Of a stretch of 64,000 nt of DNA, positions 28,873 through 43,600 are shown one piece after another. The DNA comes from Candidatus Omnitrophota bacterium (GTDB taxonomy: Bacteria > Omnitrophota > Gorgyraeia > Duberdicusellales > 4484-171). The translations under genes and the position numbers were made by a program. The stretch is from positions 5,368-69,367 of the forward strand of contig JBDRIY010000019.1 of NCBI GenBank assembly GCA_043815445.1, written 5' to 3'. How positions within the stretch are numbered: position 1 is the stretch's first letter; each line of letters opens with the position of its first letter. Below the pieces are notes generated by a model, which was given only the letters and a program-made list of their open reading frames with translations, was not told the DNA's origin and did not search any database.

Positions 28873-29751
28873 TTATGCCTGTTGGGGTGCCCGTTTCTTA
28901 TCTAAATATAATTTCCTCACAACATTCAAATTTTTCTTTCCGCCATCCTCATCTTTATTAGGTGTTTCTAAGATAAAAGGCAGATTCTTTAGCTTAGGGT
29001 GGTTAAAGACAAGAGATAAACCTTTTTTGCCTATTAATCCTTGGCCTATATCAGCATGGCGGTCAATTTTTGAACCAAGTTCTTCTTTAGTATCATTAAG
29101 ATGAATTACTTTTAAACGCTCTAAGCCAACCTCTTTATCAATTTCTTTTAAAAGGCTGTTTAGGCCTACAGCATCATTTATTTTATACCCTGCGGCCCAA
29201 GCATGAGCAGTATCTAAACAAATTCCAATCCGCTCAGGATTATTCAGCTTTTCCATAATAAACTTAAAATGAGAGAAATTATAACCCAACCAGCATCCGC
29301 TTCCTGAAGTATTTTCTAAAGCAACAAGTGTTTTAACGCCTTTGGTTTCTTTTAAAATTTTATTTAAAGCATTAGCTATCCTTAAAAGCCCTCCCTCTTC
29401 AGTAGTGCCCTTGTAAGAACCCATATGAGTTACAAGATAATCCGCGCCTATGCTGTCGGCTTCAACAAGATCAGCTATAAATTCTTTTATAGTTATTTTA
29501 TGAAAACTATGCTTAGGCGAAGCTAAGTTAAGAATATAAGGAATATGAATTACTACCGGGCTTATTTTTTCTTTTCTTATTCTTTCCTTGAATATCTTTA
29601 TATCTTCTTTACTTAAAGAGGACGTTCTCCATTGCCGAGGATTGCGGGAAAAAATCTGCATTGTATTACAACCCAGCTTTTTAGCCCGTTCTACAGAATC
29701 ATAAATCTTGCCGGCAATAGACACATGTATCCCTAACTTTAACAAAATCAA
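28873..29751 (-). CDS. nfo: deoxyribonuclease IV (endonuclease IV)
   Basis: TIM-barrel AP-endonuclease 2 family; LGIHVSIAG N-terminus and metal-binding His/Asp/Glu positions (HxxY...DT.H). Confidence 0.9.
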   Translation of the reverse strand: MILLKLGIHVSIAGKIYDSVERAKKLGCNTMQIFSRNPRQWRTSSLSKEDIKIFKERIRKEKISPVVIHIPYILNLASPKHSFHKITIKEFIADLVEADSIGADYLVTHMGSYKGTTEEGGLLRIANALNKILKETKGVKTLVALENTSGSGCWLGYNFSHFKFIMEKLNNPERIGICLDTAHAWAAGYKINDAVGLNSLLKEIDKEVGLERLKVIHLNDTKEELGSKIDRHADIGQGLIGKKGLSLVFNHPKLKNLPFILETPNKDEDGGKKNLNVVRKLYLDKKRAPQQA

Positions 29752-30019: not shown

Positions 30020-30823
30020 TTACCTTATACCTTTTGTGCTTGCTATTTTCTCTCCCATTCGAACCAAATCTTCTAAAAAAAGCTTTCCCATTGGCTTCAC
30101 ATAAAAACCTTTTATCTCTTTAATACCGAGTTTATCCTTCTCTTTATATTGAATATTAATAATATCGAACCAAGCAAACGGAACTAATATACAATGTTTT
30201 ATCCCCCATTCCATACCGCTACAAGCCCAATCTTGCGACTGCGCGTTCCATTTAAGATTTAAATTTGTTATTAATTTTTTCGTAAATTTTTTAAAATCTA
30301 TCCCGCGCTCAATGCCGCTTATTTCTTTTATGTAAGGTATTAATTCCAGTATTTTATCTTGAATCATCTGCCCAAAATCTCCTTCCGGCATCCAGTTATT
30401 CCAATCCATGCTAAACCACCATGCCAAAATAAGCCATAGTTTTTTCTTGCCTCCATCCATATTGAAAAAATTATCATACTCTGCCCCGGAAAATAAAACA
30501 TCTTTATCATTTACGGCAATACATTCGCTGGCTTCCGCTAATAAATCCATAAAATATATCCTGGGAAAACAATACTCTTCGCGAATTCTGTATATTTTAT
30601 CTCCTATTTTATCTTCCACACGCAAAGGGGTTTTAAGCAAAGCGTTAATCGCGTAAAGATGTTTAACCGGAATCCATCTACACTTAGGTGTTAACTTTAT
30701 TTTATGGCTATTAACATAAGATAAAAATTCTTTAAAATCGCATAGAAAATCTTCTTTTTCAAAACGTTTGTTGAGATCTTCCATAAAAGCGTCAACATCA
30801 AGGAATAAAGGCTCTGTTTTCAT
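30020..30823 (-). CDS. hypothetical protein (first gene of the accessory island; W-rich; no motif recognised)
   Basis: 267-aa ORF sitting 80 bp downstream of the PIF1-like helicase gene; no recognisable catalytic motif. Confidence 0.4.
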   Translation of the reverse strand: MKTEPLFLDVDAFMEDLNKRFEKEDFLCDFKEFLSYVNSHKIKLTPKCRWIPVKHLYAINALLKTPLRVEDKIGDKIYRIREEYCFPRIYFMDLLAEASECIAVNDKDVLFSGAEYDNFFNMDGGKKKLWLILAWWFSMDWNNWMPEGDFGQMIQDKILELIPYIKEISGIERGIDFKKFTKKLITNLNLKWNAQSQDWACSGMEWGIKHCILVPFAWFDIINIQYKEKDKLGIKEIKGFYVKPMGKLFLEDLVRMGEKIASTKGIR

Positions 30824-30903
30824 AAATATTATATTGTTATTTTCAAGAGTCTCTGACTCTCTTTAGAAAAAAAATAGGTGTGCCCCTTTCTTTCTTAGAA
30901 GCT

Positions 30904-32328
30904 TTATACCTGAATAATTGCTTCATAAAATCGTTTGATCCGTTGATCGCATTTTATTTCATTCTTTTCAATAGGCCGGGCTAAAGTAATATCCCGTAAT
31001 GATCTACACCTACTTAAAGCAACGTAAACTTGTCCTGATGCAAAGGCGCCATTTCCTAAATCTACTCTAACTTTCTCCAAAGTTTTCCCCTGACTTTTAT
31101 GTATCGTAACAGCCCATGCAAGCATCAAGGGAAACTGTGTATATTTTCCAACAACAACTGGCTTGATTTTGTCTTTTGAATAGTCATATGCGTATTTAAA
31201 TGACTCCCAACTTACCCTATGTACATCAAGAACTTCTCTTGATTGATCAGAAACTAATTCCACCTGTATCAATTCATTTTTAAAATTTACAACACGGCCG
31301 ATAGTTCCATTAACCCATCTCTTTTGTTCATCATTCTTCGTAAACATTACTTGCGCACCTGGCTTCAATTGCAAATTCAAAGGTGACGGAAGCTTTTCTT
31401 CTTGAACAGCGAACTTCCCGGAAATTTCTCCGATAAACGAACTCACTTCTCCCGGCAATTGCTGGAGTTTTAAGTTATTGATTTTATCAGCGGCAGTATT
31501 AGTACATGTAAGAGTTATTAACGACGGGGCTTCATCTTTTTCATCTATACAACGCTTATTAATTTGATGAATAACCGCGCAGCATTGTTCAGCTACCCGT
31601 ATTCGATTTAACATTTCTGTAAATTTAGAGTCAGTTTGCCTAAATATTTTACACAACTCAATCGGAACAAATTCACAATTCTGCAATACTTTGGCGCTAA
31701 AGAAAAAAGGGCTTTCATATCTTCTGGCCGCAAGAATTTTCTCCTCTTGTTTTTTAACAACCGGCGGTAATTGAAACAGGTCGCCGACAAATAAAACTTG
31801 TATACCGCCAAAAGGTTGGTTAGAACGCGGCCCGTTTAAACGCAGAAATTGATCCATAGCATCAATCAAATCAGCGCGTACCATAGAAACCTCATCAACG
31901 ATTAACACATCAATCTTTTCATAAACCGTCCGGCTCCTTACTCCTTTTATATCCTCATTAGTAATAATTCTCGGCGGTAAACGAAAAAAAGAATGAATTG
32001 TTGCTCCTTTGGCATTTAACGCGGCCACTCCGGTAGGAGCGACAACCACCACATTTTTATTTAATTTCTCTCTAAGATAATGGATTAAAGTCGTCTTGCC
32101 TGTGCCTGCTTTCCCGCTTACAAATAAAATGGGTAAATTATTATTTAATAATTTTTCAATATTTTCATATTCCTCAGTTACCTCTATATCCGCAAGAATA
32201 TCGAGATTGTCTTTCTTTAAATCCTTTGATTGACAAAAACTTCCGGCAGCATGACGGTTTAGCCTCCCAATATTAACCGGCTTAACTCCCAATATCCCTT
32301 TCAATGAATCTAAGATACTCATGTCCAT
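30904..32328 (-). CDS. PIF1/RecD-family (SF1B) helicase-like ATPase
   Basis: Walker A SGKAGTGKTT, Walker B LIVDEVSMV and the C-terminal YVALSRCRSL motif typical of Pif1/RecD/TraA-like helicases. Confidence 0.75.
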   Translation of the reverse strand: MDMSILDSLKGILGVKPVNIGRLNRHAAGSFCQSKDLKKDNLDILADIEVTEEYENIEKLLNNNLPILFVSGKAGTGKTTLIHYLREKLNKNVVVVAPTGVAALNAKGATIHSFFRLPPRIITNEDIKGVRSRTVYEKIDVLIVDEVSMVRADLIDAMDQFLRLNGPRSNQPFGGIQVLFVGDLFQLPPVVKKQEEKILAARRYESPFFFSAKVLQNCEFVPIELCKIFRQTDSKFTEMLNRIRVAEQCCAVIHQINKRCIDEKDEAPSLITLTCTNTAADKINNLKLQQLPGEVSSFIGEISGKFAVQEEKLPSPLNLQLKPGAQVMFTKNDEQKRWVNGTIGRVVNFKNELIQVELVSDQSREVLDVHRVSWESFKYAYDYSKDKIKPVVVGKYTQFPLMLAWAVTIHKSQGKTLEKVRVDLGNGAFASGQVYVALSRCRSLRDITLARPIEKNEIKCDQRIKRFYEAIIQV

Positions 32329-32367
32329 TTAATTTTTGTGGTTCAGCCTGCTTTGGCCTACTTTATT

Positions 32368-33069
32368 TTACTTTATAAATAGTAACTCTAATCTATCTTT
32401 TCTTTTTTCCCAATCAGGTATAATCTTTGTCAATAAGTCATAAAATCTTTTATTATGATGTTTATATTTCACATGGCATAATTCATGAGTGATAACATAA
32501 TCAATGCAATATTTTGGGGCATGAATTAACAAAGGATTTAGAACAACAGTATCCTTATTAACAAAACTCCCCCATCTTTTATTCATTTTTCTAATCGATA
32601 ATTTAAAGGTTTTTAGATAATTAAAACACTCAAGAACCCCGACAAAACGCTCCTGGAAAATAACATTCGCACGTTTTCTGTACCACACATCAATTAACTT
32701 CCGATTATAATCTCCGTTGGAAACTTTAGCCTGAGTATCAAGCAATAAACGTCCTTTCGCAAGAGAGACATTATCATCTTTTGCCCTCTTAACTATCAGC
32801 TTATACTGACGCCCTAAATATAAAAAACTCTCCCCTGATATGTATTCTTTCTCATATCTCTCCCTCTGAAACCTCTTAAAGAAACTAAGCTGTTTATTAA
32901 GCCATTTCCACTTCTTCTTTAAAAACGCTTCAATACGATCTTCCTTTGCCTCAATCGGACACCGGAGGACAATACCCATATCTGGACATACGGTCAAACT
33001 AAGAGTTTTTCTTTCTTGCCTCAAAAACTCATACTCATATCTATATTGACCGTAAGTAAATACTTTCAT
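32368..33069 (-). CDS. YgjP/DUF45-family (M48/SprT-like) zinc metallopeptidase; hsdR-associated
   Basis: HExxH zinc motif VITHELCHVKYKHH near the C-terminus. It is paralogous to ORF 53460..54164 (shared FLYLG(R/Q)(Q)YKL block). It overlaps the hsdR stop by 4 nt. Confidence 0.75.
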   Translation of the reverse strand: MKVFTYGQYRYEYEFLRQERKTLSLTVCPDMGIVLRCPIEAKEDRIEAFLKKKWKWLNKQLSFFKRFQRERYEKEYISGESFLYLGRQYKLIVKRAKDDNVSLAKGRLLLDTQAKVSNGDYNRKLIDVWYRKRANVIFQERFVGVLECFNYLKTFKLSIRKMNKRWGSFVNKDTVVLNPLLIHAPKYCIDYVITHELCHVKYKHHNKRFYDLLTKIIPDWEKRKDRLELLFIK

Positions 33070-36000
33070 TTAAAGATCTCGTAATTATTTTCAGCTAATT
33101 CCATTGCCTTATCTATGATATCCTTCATTTCCTCATTTGACAAATCAATACCACGCTCACCCTTAACAACATCATAAACATAATCATCAATTTTATTACG
33201 CATTATTCGCTTAACCTCAGCGTTTTTATACCAATCGACTATGCTTTCCTGATGTAGAATTGAATATATATCAAGAATTATCTGCTCAAAATCAGGCCTA
33301 TTTAGTTTATGCGACTGAAAGATAGGGCACAAATTACGATAAAATATATCCGCGCCTTCTTTTTGGCTAATCTTTTCAGGAATGCTCTCATCACGCTTTT
33401 GAACAACACTGTTTTTTATATCCTTCAATTCCTTTAACGCCGCGATATCTGCCATTTTCTCTTGACGCATTTTCTCTAAGATTTCATGTATTTTCTCTGA
33501 AAATCTTTTATAAAATTCAGGATCAGAATTGTATTTTTCTTTAATTGTACGTTCTGTCTGCGCTGCAATAGCCTCCGCTTTTGATTTATTAGAGCCTAAA
33601 GATTCAATAGCTTTCTCAAACTGCTCACTATCAGTAATGTTAATCTGTTTTGTTAATAATTCAACACCCTGAGCGTCAACATAATCATCAAGGATACTAA
33701 CAAGCGAACGCTTATACTTAGTCAAATCTACTTTATCAGCATACCTCAAACTTGCCGCTTTGCGGATTTCAACCATTTTTTTTATCTCTTTCTTGTAAAC
33801 ATCGATATGTTTAAACTCCTTCACGAAATCCTGTAATGCCAAACATTCGTTGAAATTCCGCAGAAACTTATTCAATACTTCATAGAAGACCACTCTTCTT
33901 TGTTCGCCATCTTCCTTAGTATCACCACCCAAAACGGTCAAGTATTCCTCACTATCACTTTTGTTCTTTATCTCTTTGAATAAATCATGAACCTCAGCAT
34001 AACTCTGTTCAAGCTCGTTAATCTTTTCCCCAACATCAATTAACGCTCCTTTAACGTCTTCTTCGTCATAATTACCAAATAATTTCATAGCCGTATCTAT
34101 ATTTTTAGCATTCTCAGAATAGTCTATAATGAATCCCGCTGTCTTTGGCAGTTCTTTATTATCATAAAGCCTATTAACACGCGCTATTGCCTGCAATAAA
34201 CTATGATCTCTTAAATCTTTTGCCAGATAAAGGACGGTATTGCATGGGGCGTCAAATCCAGTTAATAATTTATCTACAACTATTAGTATCTCGATCCCGT
34301 CAGGATTATACTTAAAACTGTCGATAACATCTTTTTCGTAAGATTCCAGGCTTCTATACTTTTCTTTCGTTTTATCTAAATATTCAATAACCTCTTTTTT
34401 ATGCGCGTCATCTTCGTCAACAATGCCATTTTCACCGGATATAACAATTGCCGTTTGAATTTTACCGCTAGACTCAAAAGCTTTCTGCATCAACACAGCC
34501 GAAAATTTTGAAGGCGAAACAATTTGCGCCTTCAAGCCTGTCCCCTGAAATTGACCACAATAATGATTCTCTATATCAACAGCAATATCCGCAATGCGCT
34601 GAGGATTATCTTTAATTATTTTTGTATTAACCAGCTTCTGTAATTCTCTTTTAGCCTTATCATCTAAATCCTTGATTATCGCGTCAACCCGCCGATCAAT
34701 CTGTTCTTTATTTTCAATCAAATCAACATAACGCCCTTCATAAATAAGAGGTAATATAATCTCATCTTTTAACGCGTCATCAATTGTATATTTATCGATA
34801 TACCCGCCAAATTTCTTCCAACTTTCACGGTCTTTCTTTAACAAAGGTGTACCCGTAAACCCAATGTAGCAAGCGTTGGGCATTACGCGGTTCATTTCAA
34901 GATTAGCAATCCCGGTTTGTGTTCGATGAGCTTCATCAATAAGCACAAATATATTTTTATCTGTATCACGAAAATTCATACGCTTCTTAGATACTGAATC
35001 AAATTTATGAACCAATGTCGTAATCACCTTGAGATTTTTTTCTTGAATAAGATCTAACAAATGCTGGCCGCTAGTAGCTTTTATCACGCCTTTTTTTAAG
35101 CCACAATTCTTGAACGTTTCAGCAATCTGCTTATCTAAATCTTTTCGATCAGTTACAATAATAACGCGTGGGTTTAATATATACGGATGTTCAATCAACG
35201 CCTTAACAAACAAAACCATGGTGAGCGATTTCCCGCTACCTTGGGTATGCCATAAAAGCCCCCCGCAACGCTTATTTCCCTCAACCCCTTTCTGCTCTTC
35301 TTCAACACGCATCAACATCTTAGCAATCGCGAAATATTGCTGATATCTCATTATTTTTTTTATCCCGGCGTCATAAATAATATAATTCTTTGTAAAATCA
35401 AGCAACCGTTTAGGAGCAAGTAACGAAACAATTCCCCTATCTTGTTCCGTGGCTAACCGGGTTTTTCTCTGGTTATAGTCTTGTGAAACTCCTAAATCTT
35501 CGCGCACTTGCGAATAAGCCGATGAATCAAGCGGTTTTTCAATATAGCGTTTTACATAACTTTCTAACTCTTTCTTAGCAATCCCCTTTTCTTTCCAAAT
35601 AGAATAAAACTTAGCCTGAGTTAGTGTAGTTCCGTATCGAAATTCCGATCCATTGGTCGCAATCAATAGTTGAGAATAAACAAAAAACTTGGGACAATAC
35701 TCCGCCCGCTGATTACGCGACATCTGAAAGATAGCTTCTTTTATATCCACACCGGCTTTTTTATTCTCAATAACTACAAAAGGAATACCGTTTACAAAAC
35801 AAACAATGTCCGGACGAATATGCCTCTTACCGTTGGCTTCATATTCAACCGTTACGTGAAAAACATTGTTTTCAGGGTGAGCAAAATCAATAAACCTAAA
35901 GCTTCTAGATATATTTTTGCCCTCATGGAAAACTTTGATTGTCTTTCCTCCTGTCTTAGGCATAATCATATTGTATACCAATCGCGAGGTGTCAATTAAT

Positions 36001-36269
36001 CCCTCAAGAGGAAGGCTTTCAAGCTCTTCTACCACGTCATATACATTTTTTTCGCTAAACTTATATATTTGCCCATAATACTCATATCCGTTTATTGCCA
36101 TAAGCGCTTTTGCCGCGATTTTTTTAAGTATAAATTTTGAAGCATCGCCATTACGCTGACGCATCACCTCCTCAGATGAAATATAGGAATACCCCATGCT
36201 TATTAGTACTTCAACAAAAGGAAGTTGCGATTGCCTTATTTCATCAAAATCAGCTTTAATATTATTCAT
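33066..36269 (-). CDS. hsdR: type I restriction enzyme R subunit
   Basis: 1067 aa; N-terminal PD-(D/E)xK nuclease DIVCFVNGIPFVVIENKK, SF2 motif I HTQGSGKSLTMV and DEAH box VLIDEAHR. Confidence 0.95.
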   Translation of the reverse strand: MNNIKADFDEIRQSQLPFVEVLISMGYSYISSEEVMRQRNGDASKFILKKIAAKALMAINGYEYYGQIYKFSEKNVYDVVEELESLPLEGLIDTSRLVYNMIMPKTGGKTIKVFHEGKNISRSFRFIDFAHPENNVFHVTVEYEANGKRHIRPDIVCFVNGIPFVVIENKKAGVDIKEAIFQMSRNQRAEYCPKFFVYSQLLIATNGSEFRYGTTLTQAKFYSIWKEKGIAKKELESYVKRYIEKPLDSSAYSQVREDLGVSQDYNQRKTRLATEQDRGIVSLLAPKRLLDFTKNYIIYDAGIKKIMRYQQYFAIAKMLMRVEEEQKGVEGNKRCGGLLWHTQGSGKSLTMVLFVKALIEHPYILNPRVIIVTDRKDLDKQIAETFKNCGLKKGVIKATSGQHLLDLIQEKNLKVITTLVHKFDSVSKKRMNFRDTDKNIFVLIDEAHRTQTGIANLEMNRVMPNACYIGFTGTPLLKKDRESWKKFGGYIDKYTIDDALKDEIILPLIYEGRYVDLIENKEQIDRRVDAIIKDLDDKAKRELQKLVNTKIIKDNPQRIADIAVDIENHYCGQFQGTGLKAQIVSPSKFSAVLMQKAFESSGKIQTAIVISGENGIVDEDDAHKKEVIEYLDKTKEKYRSLESYEKDVIDSFKYNPDGIEILIVVDKLLTGFDAPCNTVLYLAKDLRDHSLLQAIARVNRLYDNKELPKTAGFIIDYSENAKNIDTAMKLFGNYDEEDVKGALIDVGEKINELEQSYAEVHDLFKEIKNKSDSEEYLTVLGGDTKEDGEQRRVVFYEVLNKFLRNFNECLALQDFVKEFKHIDVYKKEIKKMVEIRKAASLRYADKVDLTKYKRSLVSILDDYVDAQGVELLTKQINITDSEQFEKAIESLGSNKSKAEAIAAQTERTIKEKYNSDPEFYKRFSEKIHEILEKMRQEKMADIAALKELKDIKNSVVQKRDESIPEKISQKEGADIFYRNLCPIFQSHKLNRPDFEQIILDIYSILHQESIVDWYKNAEVKRIMRNKIDDYVYDVVKGERGIDLSNEEMKDIIDKAMELAENNYEIFK

Positions 36270-36951
36270 AGTTAACCTCTAAACGAAATTGATTACCAAT
36301 AAAAGCAAATGCTCCGCCCATTTCAATTAGAAATCGATTTATCCTAAGCATGAGCCCACGCTCAAGCTCTTTTTCGCTATGTTCTTCCCCTAATTCCAAA
36401 AAATCAAAAGCATATTCATCTTTTATCGCTAACTTTGCCTGATTGTGAATTTTCGCGGGAAGTGTTTTCTTGAAATTAGTCTGGTTCATAACCGTTTTTT
36501 CATAACTCTGATTCTCAATCTGATGAACCAAAACATTCTTTGTCCATCCCATTCTCTTTGTCATACGGATATAAAATTCACGTTCTAAATAATCCTTACA
36601 CCGCTCCAAAATCATAATATTGTGCGACCAGCCAATTTCTCGCACCAATGGTGCGAGTTTTTCACTTTTGCCGTAAGCTAAATAAAAATTACGCATTCTC
36701 CAAAGCCCAGATGATGAAAACCCTAAAATTCCGACAAACTCTACCTGCAAATCTTTTGACAAATTGTCAACAATTGCCTTCCCCCATCCATGCTCCTTCT
36801 GTTGCGCGACAATCATTTTCCCAATATCCCAATACAAGTTAATAAGCTCTTTATTAACCTTCTTAAGCGCTTGATACTGCGCGGAACGAATACGTTCTTT
36901 AATCTCACTAATAAATTTAGTATATTCTAATGTACTCTTAATTTTTTTCAT
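36262..36951 (-). CDS. DUF1016 (YhcG-like) family protein, apparently C-terminally truncated before the PD-(D/E)xK core
   Basis: Matches the YhcG N-terminal region (GWSHNIMILERCKD...GGAFAFIGNQFRLEV) but stops at ...EVNYE*. The stop overlaps the hsdR start (ctATGAAtaa) where the nuclease block normally follows. Confidence 0.65.
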   Translation of the reverse strand: MKKIKSTLEYTKFISEIKERIRSAQYQALKKVNKELINLYWDIGKMIVAQQKEHGWGKAIVDNLSKDLQVEFVGILGFSSSGLWRMRNFYLAYGKSEKLAPLVREIGWSHNIMILERCKDYLEREFYIRMTKRMGWTKNVLVHQIENQSYEKTVMNQTNFKKTLPAKIHNQAKLAIKDEYAFDFLELGEEHSEKELERGLMLRINRFLIEMGGAFAFIGNQFRLEVNYE

Positions 36952-38233
36952 AATTTTTAACCTTATCCAATAAATCCTCAGGAGTACGAATCTCCCCTGT
37001 GATAAGTTTATTTAAAAGATATTTCTTTTGCGCAGCAACTACACCCCTCTTCTTCTCCAGCGCCTCAATCTCAGCATCTGCTTTAGTAAGAATGTCGGCA
37101 ATAGCATCTTGTTCTTTTTTAAGTTTGGGAACATTTAATCTTAAATCAGAAAAATCATTTTTATTTAAAATTGGCATCGCTCCTGCTCCAGCAAATTTCC
37201 TTAATAACGTCAATGAGTTATTTATTAAATAAAATAAAAATTCATTATTATATTTCTCATTAACAATTATTGAATTAATTTGCTGATTTGTTGCTAATGG
37301 CACAGCCGCAATTGCATTTTTACCTATCGACGCAATACAAGTAATTAGTAAACTGCCCTTTGGTAACCATCTCGAAAGATTTTTACCAATCTCGGAAAGT
37401 TTCACCTCAGTATTCTTAATATATTTTGATTTAAAATCATCCGCAGTTGCCCAGCAATAATCTGACCCATAATTACTTTTGTCTTTCATTGGCGGCGTAT
37501 TGCCCGTCACAATCTCACCCATACTTTTTAACTTTATAATTTCCCATTTCTCACAAAACCCTTTTAATCGTTTTTTGCCAGTCAACAGTTGCTGCATTAA
37601 TCCTTTTTTAATATTCTTCTTAATCTCAATCTTACGATCAAGCCCTCGCAAATAACCATCCCACGCCTCAAGTACTGCTACTATGCGTTTTTGTTCTGGG
37701 AGGGGTGGAAGAAGTAGTTGAACTTTCGATACTTCATATTTTGAAATACTATACACTGAGACGCCATTAGCTACTTTTTGCAGGTGCCTCCTAATAGTAG
37801 GGTTGCTAAAAATATATTGACGAAATGATTTAAGCGTAGCATCAGGTTTTCCGCGAAGCACAAAAGTATGCAATCCACCCACAACTTTCTTGCTATTTAA
37901 TCCACGAACAAGAACATTAGTGGCAACGCCTTCGTAGTCCTCAGAAGCATCTGCCATAACAAGATCACCGTCTTTTAGCAAATCCTCTGTGCTTGGGTGA
38001 AAAGTATTTTCTACAACTATTGGTACAAGTGTGTCATCCAAAGAAATGATAGAGCTATTAAAAGTCGAATGAATATCACCATAATGAATATTGCCTACAT
38101 TTCCGATAGATACTAAACCATAGTTTAATTTTTCTCGCGACAATGCATATGATTTAACATACGAAAAAATTTTACCAACTGGAACAATCGACCAACCACA
38201 TGGTATAGGTTGTGCTTTTTTATTTTTTACCAT
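36938..38233 (-). CDS. hsdS: type I restriction-modification specificity subunit (two target-recognition domains)
   Basis: 431 aa with two variable TRDs separated and followed by conserved coiled-coil repeats (LPPLPEQKRIVAVLEAWD...; EQDAIADILTKADAEIEALEKK). Confidence 0.9.
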   Translation of the reverse strand: MVKNKKAQPIPCGWSIVPVGKIFSYVKSYALSREKLNYGLVSIGNVGNIHYGDIHSTFNSSIISLDDTLVPIVVENTFHPSTEDLLKDGDLVMADASEDYEGVATNVLVRGLNSKKVVGGLHTFVLRGKPDATLKSFRQYIFSNPTIRRHLQKVANGVSVYSISKYEVSKVQLLLPPLPEQKRIVAVLEAWDGYLRGLDRKIEIKKNIKKGLMQQLLTGKKRLKGFCEKWEIIKLKSMGEIVTGNTPPMKDKSNYGSDYCWATADDFKSKYIKNTEVKLSEIGKNLSRWLPKGSLLITCIASIGKNAIAAVPLATNQQINSIIVNEKYNNEFLFYLINNSLTLLRKFAGAGAMPILNKNDFSDLRLNVPKLKKEQDAIADILTKADAEIEALEKKRGVVAAQKKYLLNKLITGEIRTPEDLLDKVKNYEKN

Positions 38234-38726
38234 AATTGTCTCTTATATTAACTGCTTCTTCGACCCATTTTTCTATATTTTTGGCAATATGGTCATATAC
38301 ATTTTTACTAAACTCATAAGGTGAATTATATAGCTTAACCACACTGGACAGCTTCTTTTGACCTTCTTTTAATGTAAATTTTTCAAAAGGATTATCACCT
38401 TGCGTGGATTTATTCCCATTTGAATCCTTTAAATTGTGTATTCTGATTCCGACAATACCTTTTTTTGCATTCCAAGCCTTCTCTATCTCCTTACGAACCC
38501 ATTTCCTTGAAGCCGTACTAGAACCAACTAGAACTACAGCACAAGATTTACCCTTAAGCTGATCTTCAATCCAGTTTTCAACAGCTGTATCACCTTTTTT
38601 CTTTATTTTTTCCCAATCGTTATCCGATATAGGCTTATTGCCTTCAACTACGCCTATGTTTCTGACTTGACTGGTTCGCCAACAATCATTTTTAAAATGA
38701 AAACTATAAAATACTTTTCTTACCAT
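38220..38726 (-). CDS. TIR-like domain protein of the ThsB/DUF1863 type
   Basis: 168 aa. The block pattern KVFYSFHFKND..VRN / AVVLVGSSTASRKWVRKEIEKA / GIVGIRIHNLKDSNGNKSTQGDNPF follows the Thoeris ThsB TIR-like family (my recollection of B. cereus ThsB; no HMM run). It overlaps the hsdS start by 14 nt. Confidence 0.7.
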   Translation of the reverse strand: MVRKVFYSFHFKNDCWRTSQVRNIGVVEGNKPISDNDWEKIKKKGDTAVENWIEDQLKGKSCAVVLVGSSTASRKWVRKEIEKAWNAKKGIVGIRIHNLKDSNGNKSTQGDNPFEKFTLKEGQKKLSSVVKLYNSPYEFSKNVYDHIAKNIEKWVEEAVNIRDNYGKK

Positions 38727-38737
38727 AATAAATCTCC

Positions 38738-39232
38738 TTATTTACAAAAATATTCACAACATATAGGTTTTAGTACCTCAAACGCCCGTGGAAACACATT
38801 AATAAAAAACACAAGAATCACCATAGCAATAGGGATCAAGTAAAACGGCTTTAACGTAATGGAAAACATAACATCACGAATAGTACCAACATCATCTAAA
38901 TTTATATTGCCTCTTTTCCTATGAGGATTTAAATCATATAAATGCTCTTCATTACCTTTCTTTCTTTCTACTATAACCCACTCGTAAATTTTTCTATACT
39001 TTTTCTCTGTGTGAAGGAAAAAGGCATCTAAATACCAAAAACTAATAATTGGTATTAACAAAATAAAGCTCAACAGTGATATATTGGCAACCTTATCACC
39101 TAAAGCTAAAACAACAGCGACTAGCGAAATAGTCCAACCTTTTATTAAAAAAGAATTATGTGCCATGCGAGAAATACATGCTTGAATCAAATCAATTTCC
39201 TTGTGTAAAACTTCATTAGATATCTGTGCCAT
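38738..39232 (-). CDS. small three-TM membrane protein (candidate effector; possibly SLATT-like)
   Basis: 164 aa. Predicted TM helices at ~30-46, 52-72 and 126-146, a basic cytosolic loop (KKYRKIYEWVIVERKKGNEEH) and a C-terminal CCEYFCK. It lies 12 and 14 bp from the flanking TIR genes. Confidence 0.5.
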   Translation of the reverse strand: MAQISNEVLHKEIDLIQACISRMAHNSFLIKGWTISLVAVVLALGDKVANISLLSFILLIPIISFWYLDAFFLHTEKKYRKIYEWVIVERKKGNEEHLYDLNPHRKRGNINLDDVGTIRDVMFSITLKPFYLIPIAMVILVFFINVFPRAFEVLKPICCEYFCK

Positions 39233-39246
39233 AGAACACCTCTTAT

Positions 39247-39945
39247 TTAATTGACCACCTTACAAATATTATAACTATTAATATCATCGTTTATATCTTG
39301 TGCTATGCCCAAATAGCTATTAACATTTAAGACAAAATCAGACCATTTTACCGTATAGATATAACTAGGATATCCACTATAGATGGTGGTACGATTATGG
39401 CAAGCCTGGTAAACAGGATTGATAGTATTAAACATATTATCCCTAAGTATAGGGAATAAGCGAGCTGTATTATATAAAGTACAGCCTGGCAGACAACAAG
39501 AATAAGAATTAACAAAATAACTATAACTACCGATAGAATCAGGAAGAATCACTGCAAGAACAGCGTTTGTCTGGCTTGCTCTATCATTTCTTGCATGCTC
39601 CTTCAAAGAATATGAGATTTCCCACGGAATCCATTGATCTGAATCGGGAACGCTTGACTCACGCATATTAGGAGAAATTAAAACTATAGTTACACTGCTA
39701 TCGTAAATTTTATCCCTCAACTTATACTTAATCGTTTCATCTTTTAGATGACTAATATCTTCTTGATCTCTCTCCCCTTTATAAACATCATCACCGTGTT
39801 CCATGTATGTTTCAATTTTATCCACATAATCTCTTGCTGTTGTAGGATTAAGCGCCTCCTGGAAACTACCGTCTCGCAAAGATAAAACATCTTGATCTTT
39901 ATGTTTATATGATACAAAAATTTTCTTACCCAAAATAACCTCCAA
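39247..39945 (-). CDS. second TIR-like (DUF1863/ThsB-like) domain protein with C-terminal Cys/Tyr-rich extension
   Basis: N-terminal KIFVSYKHKDQD, central SVTIVLISPNMRESS and WIPWEISYSL blocks in the same order as the ThsB-like gene; 232 aa. Confidence 0.55.
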   Translation of the reverse strand: MEVILGKKIFVSYKHKDQDVLSLRDGSFQEALNPTTARDYVDKIETYMEHGDDVYKGERDQEDISHLKDETIKYKLRDKIYDSSVTIVLISPNMRESSVPDSDQWIPWEISYSLKEHARNDRASQTNAVLAVILPDSIGSYSYFVNSYSCCLPGCTLYNTARLFPILRDNMFNTINPVYQACHNRTTIYSGYPSYIYTVKWSDFVLNVNSYLGIAQDINDDINSYNICKVVN

Positions 39946-40042
39946 AAAGATTAAATTCCATTATTCTATCTCCAATTCCTTAAGATAAACCGACATCTCT
40001 TTCTTAAACTCCTCAAGAACAAATTTTTCACCATAAACATTT

Positions 40043-40897
40043 TCAGGCGATTCTTTTCTTTTTCCCTTCAATCTGCTTAACTTTTTTATTTGATATCAAT
40101 AGCTTCATCTGCGTAATTGCTATTTGATTTAATTTCATTAATCTCTCAGCTTGAGATTTTCCTTCACTGATAAATAAAGCGTTCAGATTTTCCAGATTAG
40201 AAAGGCAAATAAGCTGTGCTATGTTGGCGTAATCACGAATATTTCCTTTATTATCTTTGTTTTTATCTCTCCACCGCTTAGCCGTCATCCCAAATAATGC
40301 CATATTTAACACATCCGCTTCACTGGCATACACACATTGCTGTTGTTTCTTTGTAACTTGCGCGGGAATTAAATGTTCTTTAATTGCGTCAGTATGTATC
40401 AGATAATTTATTTTTGTTAAATTCCTTTTAATATCCCAGCCGAGTTGCTTTTGCTCATACTCTTTTAGCCGCTGAAATTCCTTGATTAAATATAATTTAA
40501 ATTCTGAAGAAATCCATGACGCGAATTCAAAAGCAATATCCTTATGAGCATATGTTCCGCCGTATCGTCCTGACTTAGAAACAAGGCCTATAGCATTTGT
40601 GTTTTCTATCCACTTTTTAGGAGACAATACAAATGAATTTAAACCTGCCTCGTTTTTAAACCAGTCGAATTCGACCCCTTTAAAACTTCGATTGTTTAAC
40701 TTTTCCCACAAACCTAAAAACTCAATTGTATTTTTACTCCGCATCCAGTTTTTGACAACATCTTTAGGCTCCTCAGGATTTCTATATCGGGCAATGTCAG
40801 TAATACAAATATAATCACCCTTCTTTGTGCTATAAATATCTACTTTTCTTTGCAAAACATTAATAGTACCCATAGATTGGCTATCTCTCATAATCAT
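40043..40897 (-). CDS. KilA-N domain-containing protein
   Basis: N-terminal block ICITDIARYRNPEEPKDVVKNWMRSKNTIEFLGLWEKLNN...SKSGRYGGTYAHKDIAFEFASWIS is the typical KilA-N domain, frequently embedded in type I R-M loci. Confidence 0.8.
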   Translation of the reverse strand: MIMRDSQSMGTINVLQRKVDIYSTKKGDYICITDIARYRNPEEPKDVVKNWMRSKNTIEFLGLWEKLNNRSFKGVEFDWFKNEAGLNSFVLSPKKWIENTNAIGLVSKSGRYGGTYAHKDIAFEFASWISSEFKLYLIKEFQRLKEYEQKQLGWDIKRNLTKINYLIHTDAIKEHLIPAQVTKKQQQCVYASEADVLNMALFGMTAKRWRDKNKDNKGNIRDYANIAQLICLSNLENLNALFISEGKSQAERLMKLNQIAITQMKLLISNKKVKQIEGKKKRIA

Positions 40898-40904
40898 ATC
40901 TCCT

Positions 40905-42413
40905 TTACTTAATCCCTAATTCTTTCAAATAAGCCGCCATCTCTTTCTCAAGCTTCTCAAGTTTTGGCTCAAGCTCAGCCAACTCTTTAAGATTAGCTGA
41001 TATATCAATCTCAGTATCTTCCACAAAAGTATCAACATATCTTGTAATATTAAGGTTAAAGTCGTTTTCTTCAATTTCTTTAAAATTAACTTTACGAGAA
41101 AACTTATCAATATCTTTTCTCTTAATGTAAGTGTTATAAATCTTTTTAATATTATCGTCAGTTAAGGAATTTTGAGCTTTGCCCGGCTTAAACTCTTTAG
41201 ACGCTTCAATAAAAAGAATGCTCTTTTTTTTCTCATTAGCCCCGCCTGCCTCACGAGAACGATCTATAATAAGTATGGCAACCGGTATCCCTGTTGTCTG
41301 AAAAAGCCCCGCAGGTAAGCCAATGACAGCGTCAATAATGTTTTCTTCTAAAAGCTGTTGGCGAATTTTACCTTCAGCGCCGCCCCTAAACAATACCCCG
41401 TGCGGAACAATAACCGCGACACGGCCTGTTTTAGGTTTTGCTACTTCTATCATATGAGAGACAAATGCATAATCACCCTTATCTTTAGGCGGAACACCTC
41501 TAAAAAATCTATTATACCTATCATGCTCAGCACTTTCTGCTCCCCATTTTTTTAAACTAAAAGGAGGATTAGCAATAACCACATCAAATTTCATCAGCTT
41601 ATCATTCTCAACAAGCAAAGGATTGTTAAGCGTATCACCCCATTCAAGTCTCGCTGAATCTTTACCATGAAGAAACATATTCATGCGCGCAAGCTGATAG
41701 GTGCTTCCTGTTGACTCTTGGCCATATAAGGCATAATTTTTTGTATCCTGTTTCTCAACTTCTTTACCGGCTAATAAAAGAAGGCCGCCTGAGCCCATCG
41801 CCGGGTCACAAATACGATCGCCTTCTTTGGGTTGAGACAACATCGCAACCAGGGTTGCTACTGTTTTGGTAGTAAAAAATTCGCCCGCTTTCTTACCGGC
41901 ATCAGCACCAAACTTTTCAATCATATACATATAAGAGTTACCAATAATATCTTCATCGGTGTCACTTAAATCAATTTTATAAAAATCATTAATCAAATGG
42001 CGTAACATCTTATTCCGTTGTTCCTGTCTACCAAGAACAGCCTCTGAATTAAAATCAACACTAAAAACGCCTTCTAATTTACTCTTATTAATATCCTCAA
42101 TTTTATGCAGAACCTTATTTATTTCCTCACCGATATTGTCTTGTTCATGAATACTATAAATATAATCAAAAGATGTTTTAGCTGGTAAGTAGAAACGATC
42201 TGCTTTCATCTTCTCGGCAATACGCTTTTCGTCATCCCCAAAACGTTTTTTATACTTTTGGTGCTGTTTTTTTGATAAATCGCTAAGGTACTTAAAAAAC
42301 AACATTGATAAAGCATAATCCTTATAAACATCCGCATTAACCGCAGTGCGGGAAGAATCGGCCGCTTTCCATAAAACAACATTTAAATCTTCTTGCGTAT
42401 ATTTTTTTGTCAT
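40905..42413 (-). CDS. hsdM: type I restriction-modification N6-adenine DNA methyltransferase subunit
   Basis: HsdM N-terminal domain, AdoMet motif I DPAMGSGGLL and catalytic motif IV VIANPPFS. Confidence 0.95.
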   Translation of the reverse strand: MTKKYTQEDLNVVLWKAADSSRTAVNADVYKDYALSMLFFKYLSDLSKKQHQKYKKRFGDDEKRIAEKMKADRFYLPAKTSFDYIYSIHEQDNIGEEINKVLHKIEDINKSKLEGVFSVDFNSEAVLGRQEQRNKMLRHLINDFYKIDLSDTDEDIIGNSYMYMIEKFGADAGKKAGEFFTTKTVATLVAMLSQPKEGDRICDPAMGSGGLLLLAGKEVEKQDTKNYALYGQESTGSTYQLARMNMFLHGKDSARLEWGDTLNNPLLVENDKLMKFDVVIANPPFSLKKWGAESAEHDRYNRFFRGVPPKDKGDYAFVSHMIEVAKPKTGRVAVIVPHGVLFRGGAEGKIRQQLLEENIIDAVIGLPAGLFQTTGIPVAILIIDRSREAGGANEKKKSILFIEASKEFKPGKAQNSLTDDNIKKIYNTYIKRKDIDKFSRKVNFKEIEENDFNLNITRYVDTFVEDTEIDISANLKELAELEPKLEKLEKEMAAYLKELGIK

Positions 42414-42415
42414 AG

Positions 42416-43045
42416 TTATTCCCCCACTATTTTATTTAATAATCCATTAATAATATTTTTTTTAATGGCACACTTTTTTTCTAACAAAGTTATCTGCATC
42501 GAGATATTCAAGTAAAGATCCACAAGCTTGCGCTGATCTTCCACCGAGAGCAAGTTGATCTTGATATTTTCGATATCTTTACGCAATATATATTTGATAG
42601 CGGCTCCGGTCATAAGATGACTAAACTTCTGTTGGCCAATCGGAGAATTAAGATATAGCGCCAAATAATCAGGTAAAATTATGTTGTTGTCTTTAGCGCG
42701 CAATATATATACGGAAGAAGACGCTAATATTTTTTTATTTGACCTAACCACAGCAGAACGAAAAACACCTTTGTTTGAGATAACAACATCATTGGGCTCA
42801 ATAAAAGCCTTAGTGTGAGAAGTATCACAATTAGTAGCCACTAAACCAGATACATCAATAGATAAAGCATCTTTTTTAATATTTTTAGCTTGTAAGGCAA
42901 ATAAGGAGCTGCCAAAATGCTCTTCTATGGCACCACGAAAAGTGTACCCTGCGATAATGTCAACTATGTGCTTTAGCTTTATTTTATTTTTCATACGGGA
43001 AGTATACTGCAAAAAACAAAAGCTGTCAAGTATTTTTTTACGCAT
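42416..43045 (-). CDS. hsdS: half-size type I specificity subunit (single TRD)
   Basis: 209 aa with one TRD plus the conserved C-terminal coiled-coil repeat (LSVEDQRKLVDLYLNISMQITLLEKK); lies 2 bp upstream of hsdM. Confidence 0.75.
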   Translation of the reverse strand: MRKKILDSFCFLQYTSRMKNKIKLKHIVDIIAGYTFRGAIEEHFGSSLFALQAKNIKKDALSIDVSGLVATNCDTSHTKAFIEPNDVVISNKGVFRSAVVRSNKKILASSSVYILRAKDNNIILPDYLALYLNSPIGQQKFSHLMTGAAIKYILRKDIENIKINLLSVEDQRKLVDLYLNISMQITLLEKKCAIKKNIINGLLNKIVGE

Positions 43046-43526
43046 ACTGCAAGCATACTGTAAAATAGGCAGGATTTGTAGCGAATTTATTTGATTCTCA
43101 CAATCTGTAATTCAGTCCACACGTTACTTAATTAGGTATCATGTGTCCCCGGAATTTCCGGGCTTTACCCCCCCCATTAGATTTCGGTCTGTGAAGCTGA
43201 AATATTTGCTGTTTCCTAAAATACTTCCTTTTTTAAATCTCTCATTCTGATTAAAAATATATCAGCGGCGTCTTTTTTCAGCTCCGTCATCGTTCATCCC
43301 TCCTAAAAATAAAAAAACCTCCACGTTTTATTCGCGAAGGTTTTATCCGCCTGAGGCGGATAGTTCGGGATTTAGCCTTCTTAACTCGGGACTTTTGCCT
43401 AATTGTAATTATGCTTTATCTCGAAAAACAAAGTTGTCAATGGTTTCTTATAAAACCTTACTCTTCTACGCCTTCGCTTTGCTCTTGGCTTCGAAGCAGC
43501 ACCAAATCTTTGCTTCAGCAAAAATT

Positions 43527-43600
43527 TGGTGGAGCCGACGGGAATCGAACCCGTGATACCACAATGCCATTGTGGTGTGATCCCGCTTCACCACGGCCCC
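43527..43600 (-). tRNA. tRNA-Ala (anticodon GGC)
   Basis: Reverse complement folds as GGGGCCG-TG-GTGA-AGCGGGA-TCAC-A-CCACA-ATGGCAT-TGTGG-TATC-ACGGG-TTCGATT-CCCGT-CGGCTCC-A-CCA. It has the G3:U70 Ala identity pair, anticodon GGC and an encoded CCA. Confidence 0.85.

What the first reader, a model, noticed from the sequence alone, without database searches (positions are those of the whole stretch)
38220..39945. TIR / small 3-TM protein / TIR cassette embedded in a type I R-M operon: candidate Thoeris-like system with a minimal membrane effector
Three co-directional genes are separated by only 12 and 14 bp. The first, 38220-38726, has the ThsB/DUF1863 TIR-like block pattern (VFYSFHFKND ... VLVGSSTASRKWVRKEIEKA ... 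GIVGIRIHNLKD..GN...GDNPF). The second, 39247-39945, is a more divergent protein of the same fold (KIFVSYKHKD ... TIVLISPNMRESS ... WIPWEISYSL) with a Cys/Tyr-rich tail. Between them lies a 164-aa protein with three predicted TM helices, a basic cytosolic loop and no enzymatic domain. No SIR2, SLOG or Macro (ThsA-type) protein is present in the window. In Thoeris the TIR protein (ThsB) senses infection and produces a nucleotide signal that activates ThsA. Here the only candidate effector is the small TM protein, possibly a SLATT-like 2TM pore of the kind predicted to partner with TIR domains. The module sits between hsdM/KilA-N and hsdS, so it is probably co-transcribed with the R-M genes.
Basis: partly seen in the sequence, partly recalled or inferred. 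Interest (0 to 1): 0.85.

Follow-up and report, generated by a model that had tools for sequence, protein, structure and literature searches.

The report
Type V Thoeris cassette inside restriction operon
The three genes are a real anti-phage signalling module (two TIR sensor proteins flanking a small three-helix membrane effector), but this kind of system was named and tested in late 2025 as "type V Thoeris", so this is a new example of a known system.

Summary
Three tightly packed minus-strand genes, 39933-39247, 39232-38738 and 38726-38220, encode a ThsB-type TIR protein, a 164-aa three-TM protein and a second ThsB-type TIR protein. They sit inside a co-directional type I R-M operon. [quoted passage not shown] Both proteins hit the same PADLOC candidate profile, PDC-M50A. 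Both TIRs are 49-57% identical to TIRs that the paper lists as type V partners, and both keep the catalytic glutamate. In 64 of 78 related genomic loci the TM gene has a co-directional TIR gene within 2.6 kb, and in 28 it is flanked by TIR genes on both sides. About 10 of 80 loci lie inside type I R-M operons, a position already exploited by the "guilt-by-embedding" study that produced PDC-M50. The SLATT suggestion is not supported. The likely mechanism is inferred from the homologue: phage-triggered ThsB makes a cADPR-type signal (3'cADPR in Bacillus) that activates an oligomeric ThsF membrane channel. Verdict: new member of a known kind, low interest.

The parts
39247..39933 (-). thsB (TIR-B): 228-aa ThsB-type TIR protein with a conserved Cys-rich C-terminal extension. 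The mechanical ORF call starts at 39945; the TTG at 39933 after GGAGG is the likelier start.
   Evidence: Pfam PF08937 1.6e-7. PADLOC ThsB PDLC00428 4.4e-78, full length. 49% identity over 220 aa to IMG 2512524509, listed as 'DUF2270 - Type V' TIR. Catalytic-position Glu E105 in WIPWE.
38738..39232 (-). thsF: 164-aa three-TM effector of type V Thoeris (PADLOC PDC-M50A)
   Evidence: 37% identity, E 3e-24 to ThsF of B. thuringiensis DAR 81934. Same PADLOC profile PDLC04686: 4.5e-38 here, 1.8e-48 for Bt ThsF. Three hydrophobic segments and three long helices. All family-core residues retained.
38220..38726 (-). thsB (TIR-A): 168-aa ThsB-type TIR protein (PADLOC ThsB / PDC-M50B)
   Evidence: Pfam PF08937 7.3e-27. 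PADLOC PDLC00433 2.9e-75 and PDC-M50B 8.2e-65. 57% identity to IMG 2509429074, listed as 'DUF2270 - Type V' TIR. E80 in WVRKE aligns with the WVRYE glutamate of B. cereus MSX-D12 ThsB.
40905..43045 (-). Context: half-size hsdS (42416-43045) and hsdM (40905-42413) of the host type I R-M operon
   Evidence: Pfam Methylase_S / PADLOC Specificity_I hits for the 209-aa protein. ORF map. I named the 502-aa ORF hsdM from its sequence and from hits to HsdM-position ORFs in related loci; it was not scanned against Pfam.
40043..40897 (-). Context: KilA-N domain protein, another R-M-embedded defence candidate (PADLOC PDC-S22)
   Evidence: Pfam KilA-N 2.1e-22. PDC-S22 3.1e-134.
33066..38233 (-). Context: hsdS (36938-38233), truncated DUF1016/YhcG (36262-36951) and hsdR (33066-36269), each overlapping its neighbour by 8-14 nt
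   Evidence: ORF map. DUF1016_N 2.5e-45 and YhcG_C covering only 55 of 157 positions. PDC-S02 hits.

Best explanation
The cassette is a type V Thoeris anti-phage system with gene order thsB-thsF-thsB, carried as a passenger inside a type I restriction-modification operon of a Candidatus Omnitrophota genome. Shown here: the three proteins are homologues of the components of a validated type V system, they are intact, and their family-defining and catalytic residues are retained. Inferred from the validated homologue and from general Thoeris biology: each ThsB TIR protein senses phage infection and converts NAD+ into an ADP-ribose-derived second messenger, most probably 3'cADPR as in B. thuringiensis. 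The messenger binds positively charged pockets between protomers of a ring-shaped ThsF oligomer in the membrane. ThsF then breaches membrane integrity, stopping growth or killing the cell before the phage completes replication. The two divergent ThsBs probably widen the range of phages sensed and converge on one effector. The tight spacing, the overlapping stop/start with hsdS and the absence of terminator-like sites suggest transcription together with the R-M genes.
For: - Effector homology: the TM protein is 37% identical to Bt ThsF, E 3e-24. The Bt locus was fetched by exact match to the published TIR sequence.
- Same PADLOC PDC-M50A profiles hit both proteins.
- Both TIRs hit PF08937 and full-length ThsB profiles. 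They are 57% and 49% identical to TIRs the paper labels 'DUF2270 - Type V'.
- The catalytic-position Glu is kept in both TIRs.
- The family core shared with Bt ThsF is kept: Q17, R22, N26, S27, K31, W33, W66, D69, E76, R80, Y83, R90.
- Gene linkage: 64 of 78 ThsF loci have a co-directional TIR gene within 2.6 kb, 60 of them directly adjacent, 28 flanked on both sides, 38 with two or more TIR genes.
- Other ThsF neighbours are also TIR proteins of varied architecture.
- The paper reports protection, 3'cADPR production, 3'cADPR-induced toxicity and an AF3 heptameric channel model for type V. It also lists a three-gene Thoeris_V (ThsF plus 2 ThsB) in another Omnitrophica genome.
- Operon context: 12 co-directional genes with gaps of -14 to +109 nt. 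The only terminator-like sites between the operon start (43045) and hsdR are weak short-stem consensus matches inside coding sequences.
Against: - No experiment exists on this locus or on any Omnitrophota system.
- The window ThsF is only 37% identical to the validated one. In the paper a second type V system (Bacillus sp. 1NLA3E) was not triggered by 3'cADPR, so the signal may differ.
- TIR-A-like proteins share a sequence cluster with type XI TIRs, whose product is unknown.
- The published Pfam label DUF2270 (PF10028) cannot be reproduced with hmmscan, either for this protein or for Bt ThsF.
- Co-transcription is inferred. A 97-109 nt gap precedes the cassette, and the promoter scan is uninformative (22 sites found against 29.5 expected).
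Confidence: 0.85

Rival explanations
1. Same components, different chemistry. This ThsF clade (HKEIDLIQ / LYDLNP motifs) responds to a signal other than 3'cADPR, for example another cADPR isomer or an undescribed ADPR conjugate made by the TIR-A-type ThsB. Alternatively, the two ThsBs make different molecules.
For: TIR-A-like TIRs fall in the paper's cluster 2661146773, together with type XI TIRs whose product was not identified. One validated type V system was not activated by 3'cADPR. The window ThsF is only 37% identical to Bt ThsF.
Against: The residues conserved between Bt ThsF and the window protein include the basic and polar positions flanking the TM helices: R22, K31, R80, R90. TIR-B-type proteins also sit next to SIR2 ThsA in B. 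cereus plasmid Thoeris loci, where 3'cADPR is the usual signal according to established Thoeris type I knowledge.
Confidence: 0.25
2. Only one TIR pairs with ThsF. The other is a stand-alone NAD+-depleting TIR effector, or belongs functionally to the R-M system.
For: Stand-alone and effector TIRs exist in bacteria (paper). 32 of 78 ThsF loci have a directly adjacent TIR on one side only.
Against: Both TIR families are listed as type V partners in the paper. 28 loci have TIR genes on both sides of thsF and 38 have two or more. TIR-A matches PDC-M50B, the profile defined as the partner of the TM protein. Multiple thsB genes per effector are a known Thoeris trait.
Confidence: 0.08
3. The TM protein is a SLATT-type 2-TM pore (type VII Thoeris-like).
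For: It is a small membrane protein next to TIR genes. SLATT-TIR pairs exist as type VII Thoeris.
Against: No SLATT model hits any of 26 family members at E<=10. The protein has three, not two, hydrophobic helices. It shows direct, significant homology to ThsF instead.
Confidence: 0.02
4. The cassette is a decaying, non-functional passenger in the R-M operon.
For: The neighbouring embedded gene DUF1016/YhcG is truncated within its nuclease domain. The sequence comes from a MAG, so expression is unknown.
Against: All three ORFs are full length against their profiles. Each has its own Shine-Dalgarno sequence. Catalytic and family-core residues are intact.
Confidence: 0.07

Closest known systems
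Type V Thoeris (ThsB + ThsF), Yirmiya et al., bioRxiv 10.64898/2025.12.03.692087; validated systems from B. thuringiensis DAR 81934 and Bacillus sp. 1NLA3E
   Same: The effector is a homologous small 3-TM protein (37% identity, same PADLOC profile). ThsB-type TIR genes are adjacent and co-directional. The TIR families are the same as those listed for type V. A three-gene ThsF + 2 ThsB form is also recorded in another Omnitrophica genome.
   Different: The Bacillus systems tested are two-gene (one Bt-type 'MFxGFNL...FISHSH' TIR plus ThsF). This one has two different short ThsBs flanking ThsF and sits inside a type I R-M operon in Omnitrophota. Its signal and its activity are untested.
PADLOC-DB v2 candidate system PDC-M50 (M50A TM protein + M50B TIR), from the 'guilt-by-embedding' screen of Payne et al., bioRxiv 10.1101/2024.01.29.577857
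   Same: The window proteins hit PDC-M50A (4.5e-38) and PDC-M50B (8.2e-65). The candidate class was derived from cassettes embedded in BREX/DISARM/type I R-M loci, which is exactly the situation here.
   Different: PDC-M50 is a bioinformatic candidate with no mechanism attached, and the name does not appear in any searchable paper text. The window has an extra ThsB of another subfamily (PDLC00428).
Type I Thoeris (ThsA SIR2-SLOG + ThsB)
   Same: ThsB-type TIR sensors with the catalytic Glu. TIR-B homologues sit beside SIR2 ThsA in a B. cereus plasmid. Multiple thsB genes per effector.
   Different: There is no SIR2-SLOG effector. The effector is a membrane protein with no recognisable nucleotide-binding domain.
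Type II (Macro-TM ThsC) and type VII (SLATT ThsH) Thoeris
   Same: TIR signal activates a membrane-disrupting effector.
   Different: No Macro or SLATT domain is detectable. The fold family differs, and so do the signals (His-ADPR and canonical cADPR respectively).

Membership tests
Type V Thoeris | Effector homologous to experimentally validated ThsF | tested here: met
   BLASTP against Bt DAR 81934 ThsF (L083:4773-5198): 37% identity over 138 aa, E 3e-24. Both hit PADLOC PDLC04686/04685/04684/04687.
Type V Thoeris | Effector has three membrane-spanning helices and no enzymatic domain | tested here: met
   Three Kyte-Doolittle segments. AF2 helices 6-47, 51-91 and 127-162. No Pfam or NCBIfam domain.
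Type V Thoeris | Adjacent co-directional TIR-domain (ThsB) gene | tested here: met
   Two such genes, 14 and 11 nt from thsF. PF08937 above gathering score for both. 49-57% identity to TIRs labelled type V in the paper's Table S1.
Type V Thoeris | TIR catalytic glutamate present | tested here: met
   E80 (WVRKE) and E105 (WIPWE). E80 aligns with the WVRYE Glu of B. cereus ThsB. That this Glu is the catalytic E85 is from my own knowledge of Ofir et al. 2021.
Type V Thoeris | Effector annotated as Pfam PF10028 (DUF2270) | tested here: not met
   No PF10028 hit at E<=10 for the window protein, for 25 homologues, or for the validated Bt ThsF itself. The published label therefore rests on a more sensitive method and does not discriminate members with hmmscan.
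Type V Thoeris | ThsB makes 3'cADPR on infection and ThsF toxicity is triggered by it | not testable with these tools
   Needs LC-MS and growth assays. Reported for the Bt system only.
Type V Thoeris | ThsF forms a ring-shaped homo-oligomer with basic inter-protomer pockets | not testable with these tools
   Only a monomer could be modelled. Conserved R22, K31, R80 and R90 are compatible with it but not proof.
Type V Thoeris | Confers phage defence | not testable with these tools
PADLOC PDC-M50 | M50A and M50B profile hits in adjacent genes | tested here: met
   PDC-M50A 4.5e-38 and PDC-M50B 8.2e-65.
SLATT effectors (type VII Thoeris / CBASS) | SLATT domain, 2 TM helices | tested here: not met
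   No SLATT family among Pfam hits at E<=10 for 26 members. Three TM segments.
Type I / II Thoeris | SIR2-SLOG ThsA or Macro-TM effector next to thsB | tested here: not met
   The neighbouring genes are hsd, KilA-N and DUF1016. phmmer with a B. cereus SIR2 ThsA-like protein and a Priestia Macro protein found nothing in the window ORFs (a limited test).

The most novel reading that the evidence does not exclude
This widespread ThsF clade, flanked by two different short ThsBs and repeatedly nested in type I R-M operons, may use a TIR-derived signal other than 3'cADPR. Its TIR-A partner clusters with type XI TIRs whose product is still unknown. Its nesting might also reflect functional coupling with restriction, such as shared transcription so that Thoeris backs up R-M failure, and not mere hitch-hiking.
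Probability: 0.2. Interest if true: 0.5.

Novelty: new member of a known kind. Interest (0 to 1): 0.2.

Why it matters
The result mainly serves annotation. Current Pfam and NCBIfam leave the effector blank, so automated pipelines would call it hypothetical and the two TIRs orphan ThsBs. Recognising ThsF turns the locus into a complete, named defence system in a poorly studied phylum, Omnitrophota. It also adds a clean example, with about ten parallels in other phyla, of Thoeris cassettes riding inside type I R-M operons. The open questions belong to the family and not to this locus: the ThsF structure and ligand site, whether all ThsF clades read 3'cADPR, and what the paired ThsBs sense.

Tried and rejected
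- Pfam and NCBIfam scans of the TM protein, and of 26 homologues at E<=10, found no SLATT, no DUF2270 and nothing consistent. DUF3278 appeared in 8 of 26 members at 0.008 or worse, which I treated as noise.
- A full-text search for 'PDC-M50' found nothing.
- Foldseek against afdb50 was unavailable.
- I tried to reach ThsF through plasmid hits to the Bt-type TIR. The best Bacillus/Priestia plasmid loci turned out to be type I/II Thoeris neighbourhoods without ThsF. The direct route through the exact Bt TIR protein worked instead.
- Organism-name look-ups in the paper's tables found nothing.
- A search for a repeat of the tRNA-Ala 3' end, to delimit a mobile island, found none.
- The sigma-70 promoter scan was not enriched over shuffles and gave no site in the gap upstream of the cassette.
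- phmmer with SIR2 and Macro ThsA-like queries found nothing in the window.
Full report
**1. What is in the sequence**

All genes between about 30.0 and 43.05 kb lie on the minus strand. In transcription order they are:
- a half-size hsdS (42416-43045)
- hsdM (40905-42413)
- a KilA-N protein (40043-40897)
- a TIR protein (mechanical ORF 39247-39945)
- a 164-aa protein (38738-39232)
- a 168-aa TIR protein (38220-38726)
- hsdS (36938-38233)
- a short DUF1016/YhcG protein (36262-36951)
- hsdR (33066-36269)
- a YgjP-like metallopeptidase, a PIF1-like helicase and an unassigned 267-aa ORF

Within the cassette the gaps are 14 and 11 nt. The last TIR gene overlaps the hsdS start by 14 nt. A gap of 97-109 nt precedes the cassette. 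The upstream TIR most likely starts at the TTG at 39933, giving 228 aa. That codon follows a GGAGG, and the full-length PADLOC profile starts aligning at residue 5 of the longer ORF. Each of the three genes has its own Shine-Dalgarno-like sequence. GC content dips slightly over the cassette, to 0.32-0.33 against 0.35-0.38 in the flanking R-M genes. An exact protein match identifies the contig as a Candidatus Omnitrophota MAG.

**2. The TIR proteins**

Both proteins pass the Pfam gathering score for ThsB_TIR (PF08937), at 7.3e-27 and 1.6e-7. Both match full-length PADLOC ThsB profiles:
- The 168-aa protein matches PDLC00433 at 2.9e-75 and also PDC-M50B at 8.2e-65.
- The 228-aa protein matches PDLC00428 at 4.4e-78. 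That match includes its Cys-rich C-terminal half, so the 'tail' is a conserved part of a ThsB subfamily and not an oddity.

Both keep the glutamate at the catalytic position: E80 in WVRKE and E105 in WIPWE. E80 aligns with the WVRYE glutamate of B. cereus MSX-D12 ThsB. That this residue is the catalytic E85 comes from my own knowledge.

**3. The small membrane protein**

The decisive lead was PADLOC: the protein matches four PDC-M50A profiles, the best at 4.5e-38. The family is large, with 780 proteins at E<=1e-3 among the word-sharing candidates, all unnamed. It is strikingly conserved. Motifs include HKEIDLIQxCIxRMAxNSFLxKGW, SFWYLDAFFLxTEKxYRKMYEWV and LYDLNP.

**4. Gene neighbourhood**

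A pattern scan of one genome per species returned 80 loci from many bacterial phyla and from Methanocorpusculum. I called ORFs and searched them with iterated HMMs seeded on the window's two TIRs and on a third TIR type. Of 78 loci with a usable TM gene:
- 64 have a co-directional TIR gene within 2.6 kb.
- 60 have one directly adjacent (within 150 nt).
- 28 are flanked by TIR genes on both sides.
- 38 have two or more TIR genes.

Neighbours that my HMMs missed were still TIR proteins by Pfam: LRR-Roc-COR-TIR, EAD11-TIR-AAA, and a 457-aa TIR protein.

One caveat applies. The scan used the peptides HKEIDLIQ and SFWYLDAF, so these loci sample the clade nearest the window protein.

**5. Identification with a named system**

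[quoted passage not shown] The paper defines Thoeris types V-XI. Type V pairs a ThsB TIR with ThsF, a protein with three membrane-spanning helices that the authors annotate as DUF2270.

- phage protection in B. subtilis
- infection-dependent 3'cADPR synthesis by the TIR
- toxicity on addition of 3'cADPR but not of 2'cADPR or cADPR
- inhibition by the 3'cADPR sponge Tad1
- an AF3 homo-heptameric channel-like model with basic pockets between protomers

The paper's Table S1 gives that TIR's sequence. It belongs to the same 'MFxGFNL...DWFPxIxADIFISHSH' family that I had found next to the TM gene in several loci. I retrieved the exact protein (P0121, 100% identity) and its contig. The gene immediately downstream (L083:4773-5198, 141 aa) is therefore ThsF. 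I take this from its position and from the consecutive IMG gene IDs in Table S2.

It is 37% identical to the window protein over 138 residues, E 3e-24. It hits the same four PDC-M50A profiles, the best at 1.8e-48. In a 77-sequence alignment the residues shared with Bt ThsF are all present in the window protein: I16, Q17, I20, R22, M23, A24, N26, S27, F28, K31, G32, W33, F65, W66, L68, D69, F71-L73, E76, R80, Y83, R90, S124, T126, L127, F130, Y131.

Table S1 also lists TIRs labelled 'DUF2270 - Type V' that are 57% identical to the 168-aa TIR and 49% identical to the 228-aa TIR, the latter including the CCLxGC motif. Table S3 records a three-gene Thoeris_V (ThsF plus two ThsB) in Candidatus Omnitrophus fodinae.

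The cassette is thus a type V Thoeris system.

**6. What does not fit, or is not shown**

The Pfam label DUF2270 (PF10028) is not recoverable by hmmscan at E<=10 for the window protein, for 25 relatives, or for Bt ThsF itself. Bt ThsF shows only a weak full-length match to PF24838, '8xMP' (0.012). I therefore rest membership on homology to the validated protein and not on the Pfam name.

The SLATT idea is rejected. There are no SLATT hits, the protein has three helices and not two, and SLATT effectors define type VII.

The signal for this particular system is unknown:
- One validated type V system did not respond to 3'cADPR.
- The 168-aa TIR's relatives share a cluster with type XI TIRs, whose product the authors could not identify.
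- Relatives of the 228-aa TIR sit next to SIR2 ThsA in a B. cereus plasmid. That is compatible with 3'cADPR chemistry.

**7. The R-M context**

Twelve co-directional genes run with spacings from -14 to +109 nt. Between the operon start (43045) and hsdR the only terminator-like sites are weak short-stem consensus matches inside coding sequences. The best promoter-like sites lie upstream of the first gene, at 43741-43713 and 43029-43001 on the minus strand. None lies in the gap before the cassette, although the scan as a whole is not enriched over shuffles. Co-transcription is plausible but inferred.

The nesting is recurrent. About 10 of the 80 loci carry the TIR/ThsF cassette co-directionally between hsdM/hsdS and hsdR. 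These include Akkermansia, Brocadiaceae, Fibrobacterales, Gemmatimonadota, Cyanobacteria, Rodentibacter and Chitinophagaceae. L006 shares the window's order: hsdS-half, hsdM..., TIR, ThsF, TIR, hsdS.

This is a described phenomenon. Payne et al. (bioRxiv 10.1101/2024.01.29.577857) mined genes embedded in BREX, DISARM and type I R-M loci to define the PADLOC 'PDC' candidates. Two other passengers in this operon are such candidates: KilA-N is PDC-S22 (3.1e-134) and DUF1016 is PDC-S02.

The whole island lies between housekeeping genes (an AP-endonuclease-2-fold gene and leuS) and tRNA-Ala(ggc) at 43527-43600. The window contains no repeat of the tRNA 3' end.

**8. Verdict**

The most likely mechanism has four steps: phage-triggered ThsB(s), then a cADPR-type messenger (3'cADPR most likely), then activation of an oligomeric ThsF membrane channel, then abortive infection or growth arrest. 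Component identity is shown here. Every biochemical step is inferred from a 37%-identical validated homologue.

This is a new member of a known kind. Interest is low, about 0.2. The residual value is in annotation and in the family-level open questions: the signal specificity of this ThsF clade, the role of the paired ThsBs, and any functional link with restriction.

Noticed in passing
window 40043-40897 (-): The KilA-N domain protein between hsdM and the Thoeris cassette matches the PADLOC single-gene defence candidate PDC-S22 almost full length (3.1e-134). It is a second embedded passenger in the same R-M operon.
   Followed up: partly
window 36262-36951 (-): The DUF1016/YhcG (PADLOC PDC-S02) gene is only 229 aa. 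Its PDDEXK nuclease domain stops at position 55 of 157, and the ORF overlaps the hsdR start. It is probably a truncated remnant.
   Followed up: partly
window 30020-43600: The roughly 13-kb defence island (R-M, Thoeris, KilA-N, DUF1016, YgjP-like, PIF1-like helicase and an unassigned 267-aa ORF) lies between housekeeping genes (AP_endonuc_2-fold gene 28873-29751, leuS 26384-28840) and tRNA-Ala(ggc) 43527-43600(-). A strong terminator-like hairpin lies at 43344-43314. The window holds no direct repeat of the tRNA 3' end.
   Followed up: partly
L060:3216-5996, L068:6452-9511, L029:1353-3548, L070:6416-7789: ThsF homologues are also adjacent to large TIR proteins of very different architecture: LRR-Roc-COR-TIR, EAD11-TIR-AAA_15/21, and a 457-aa TIR protein. 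This suggests ThsF is a promiscuous effector module for many TIR sensors.
   Followed up: partly
L052:190-3470: In one Bacteroidota contig a Bt-type TIR plus ThsF pair lies directly downstream of a nucleotidyltransferase-like gene (weak, sub-threshold Pfam NTP_transf_2 hit) and a TIR-STING (CAP12-PCTIR_TIR + prok_STING) gene. That is a CBASS-like pair next to type V Thoeris.
   Followed up: no
L065 and L067 (Methanocorpusculum), L019, L064/L017/L066: Some ThsF homologues have no detectable TIR neighbour. The archaeal copies sit between an AAA_15/DUF2813 ATPase pair and an 823-aa SIR2_2 protein. Others sit next to an nSTAND1-LRR protein or to thymidylate-synthase-like genes. ThsF may have partners other than TIR.
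   Followed up: partly
L085-L102 (IMG/VR contigs): Eighteen viral contigs encode ThsF homologues (32-52% identity), so the effector is also carried by phages or prophages.
   Followed up: no
L083:4773-5198 and window 38738-39232: The published Pfam label for ThsF (DUF2270, PF10028) is not reproduced by hmmscan at E<=10 for either protein. The validated Bt ThsF instead gives a weak but full-length match to PF24838, 'Octameric membrane protein family (8xMP)', E 0.012.
   Followed up: partly
window 39247-39933 (-), residues ~140-180: The C-terminal half of TIR-B carries a conserved Cys pattern (SCCLPGC ... ACHN). It recurs in type V-listed TIRs (NCCLSGC ... ACN) and in a B. cereus plasmid ThsB (SCQICNC ... 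DCDNH). It could be a metal-binding sensor module.
   Followed up: no
L081:4537-6244 (B. cereus plasmid NZ_CP053657.2): A close relative of TIR-B (226 aa, same motifs) sits directly next to a SIR2-family ThsA-like gene. The same ThsB subfamily is therefore shared between SIR2-type and ThsF-type Thoeris loci.
   Followed up: no
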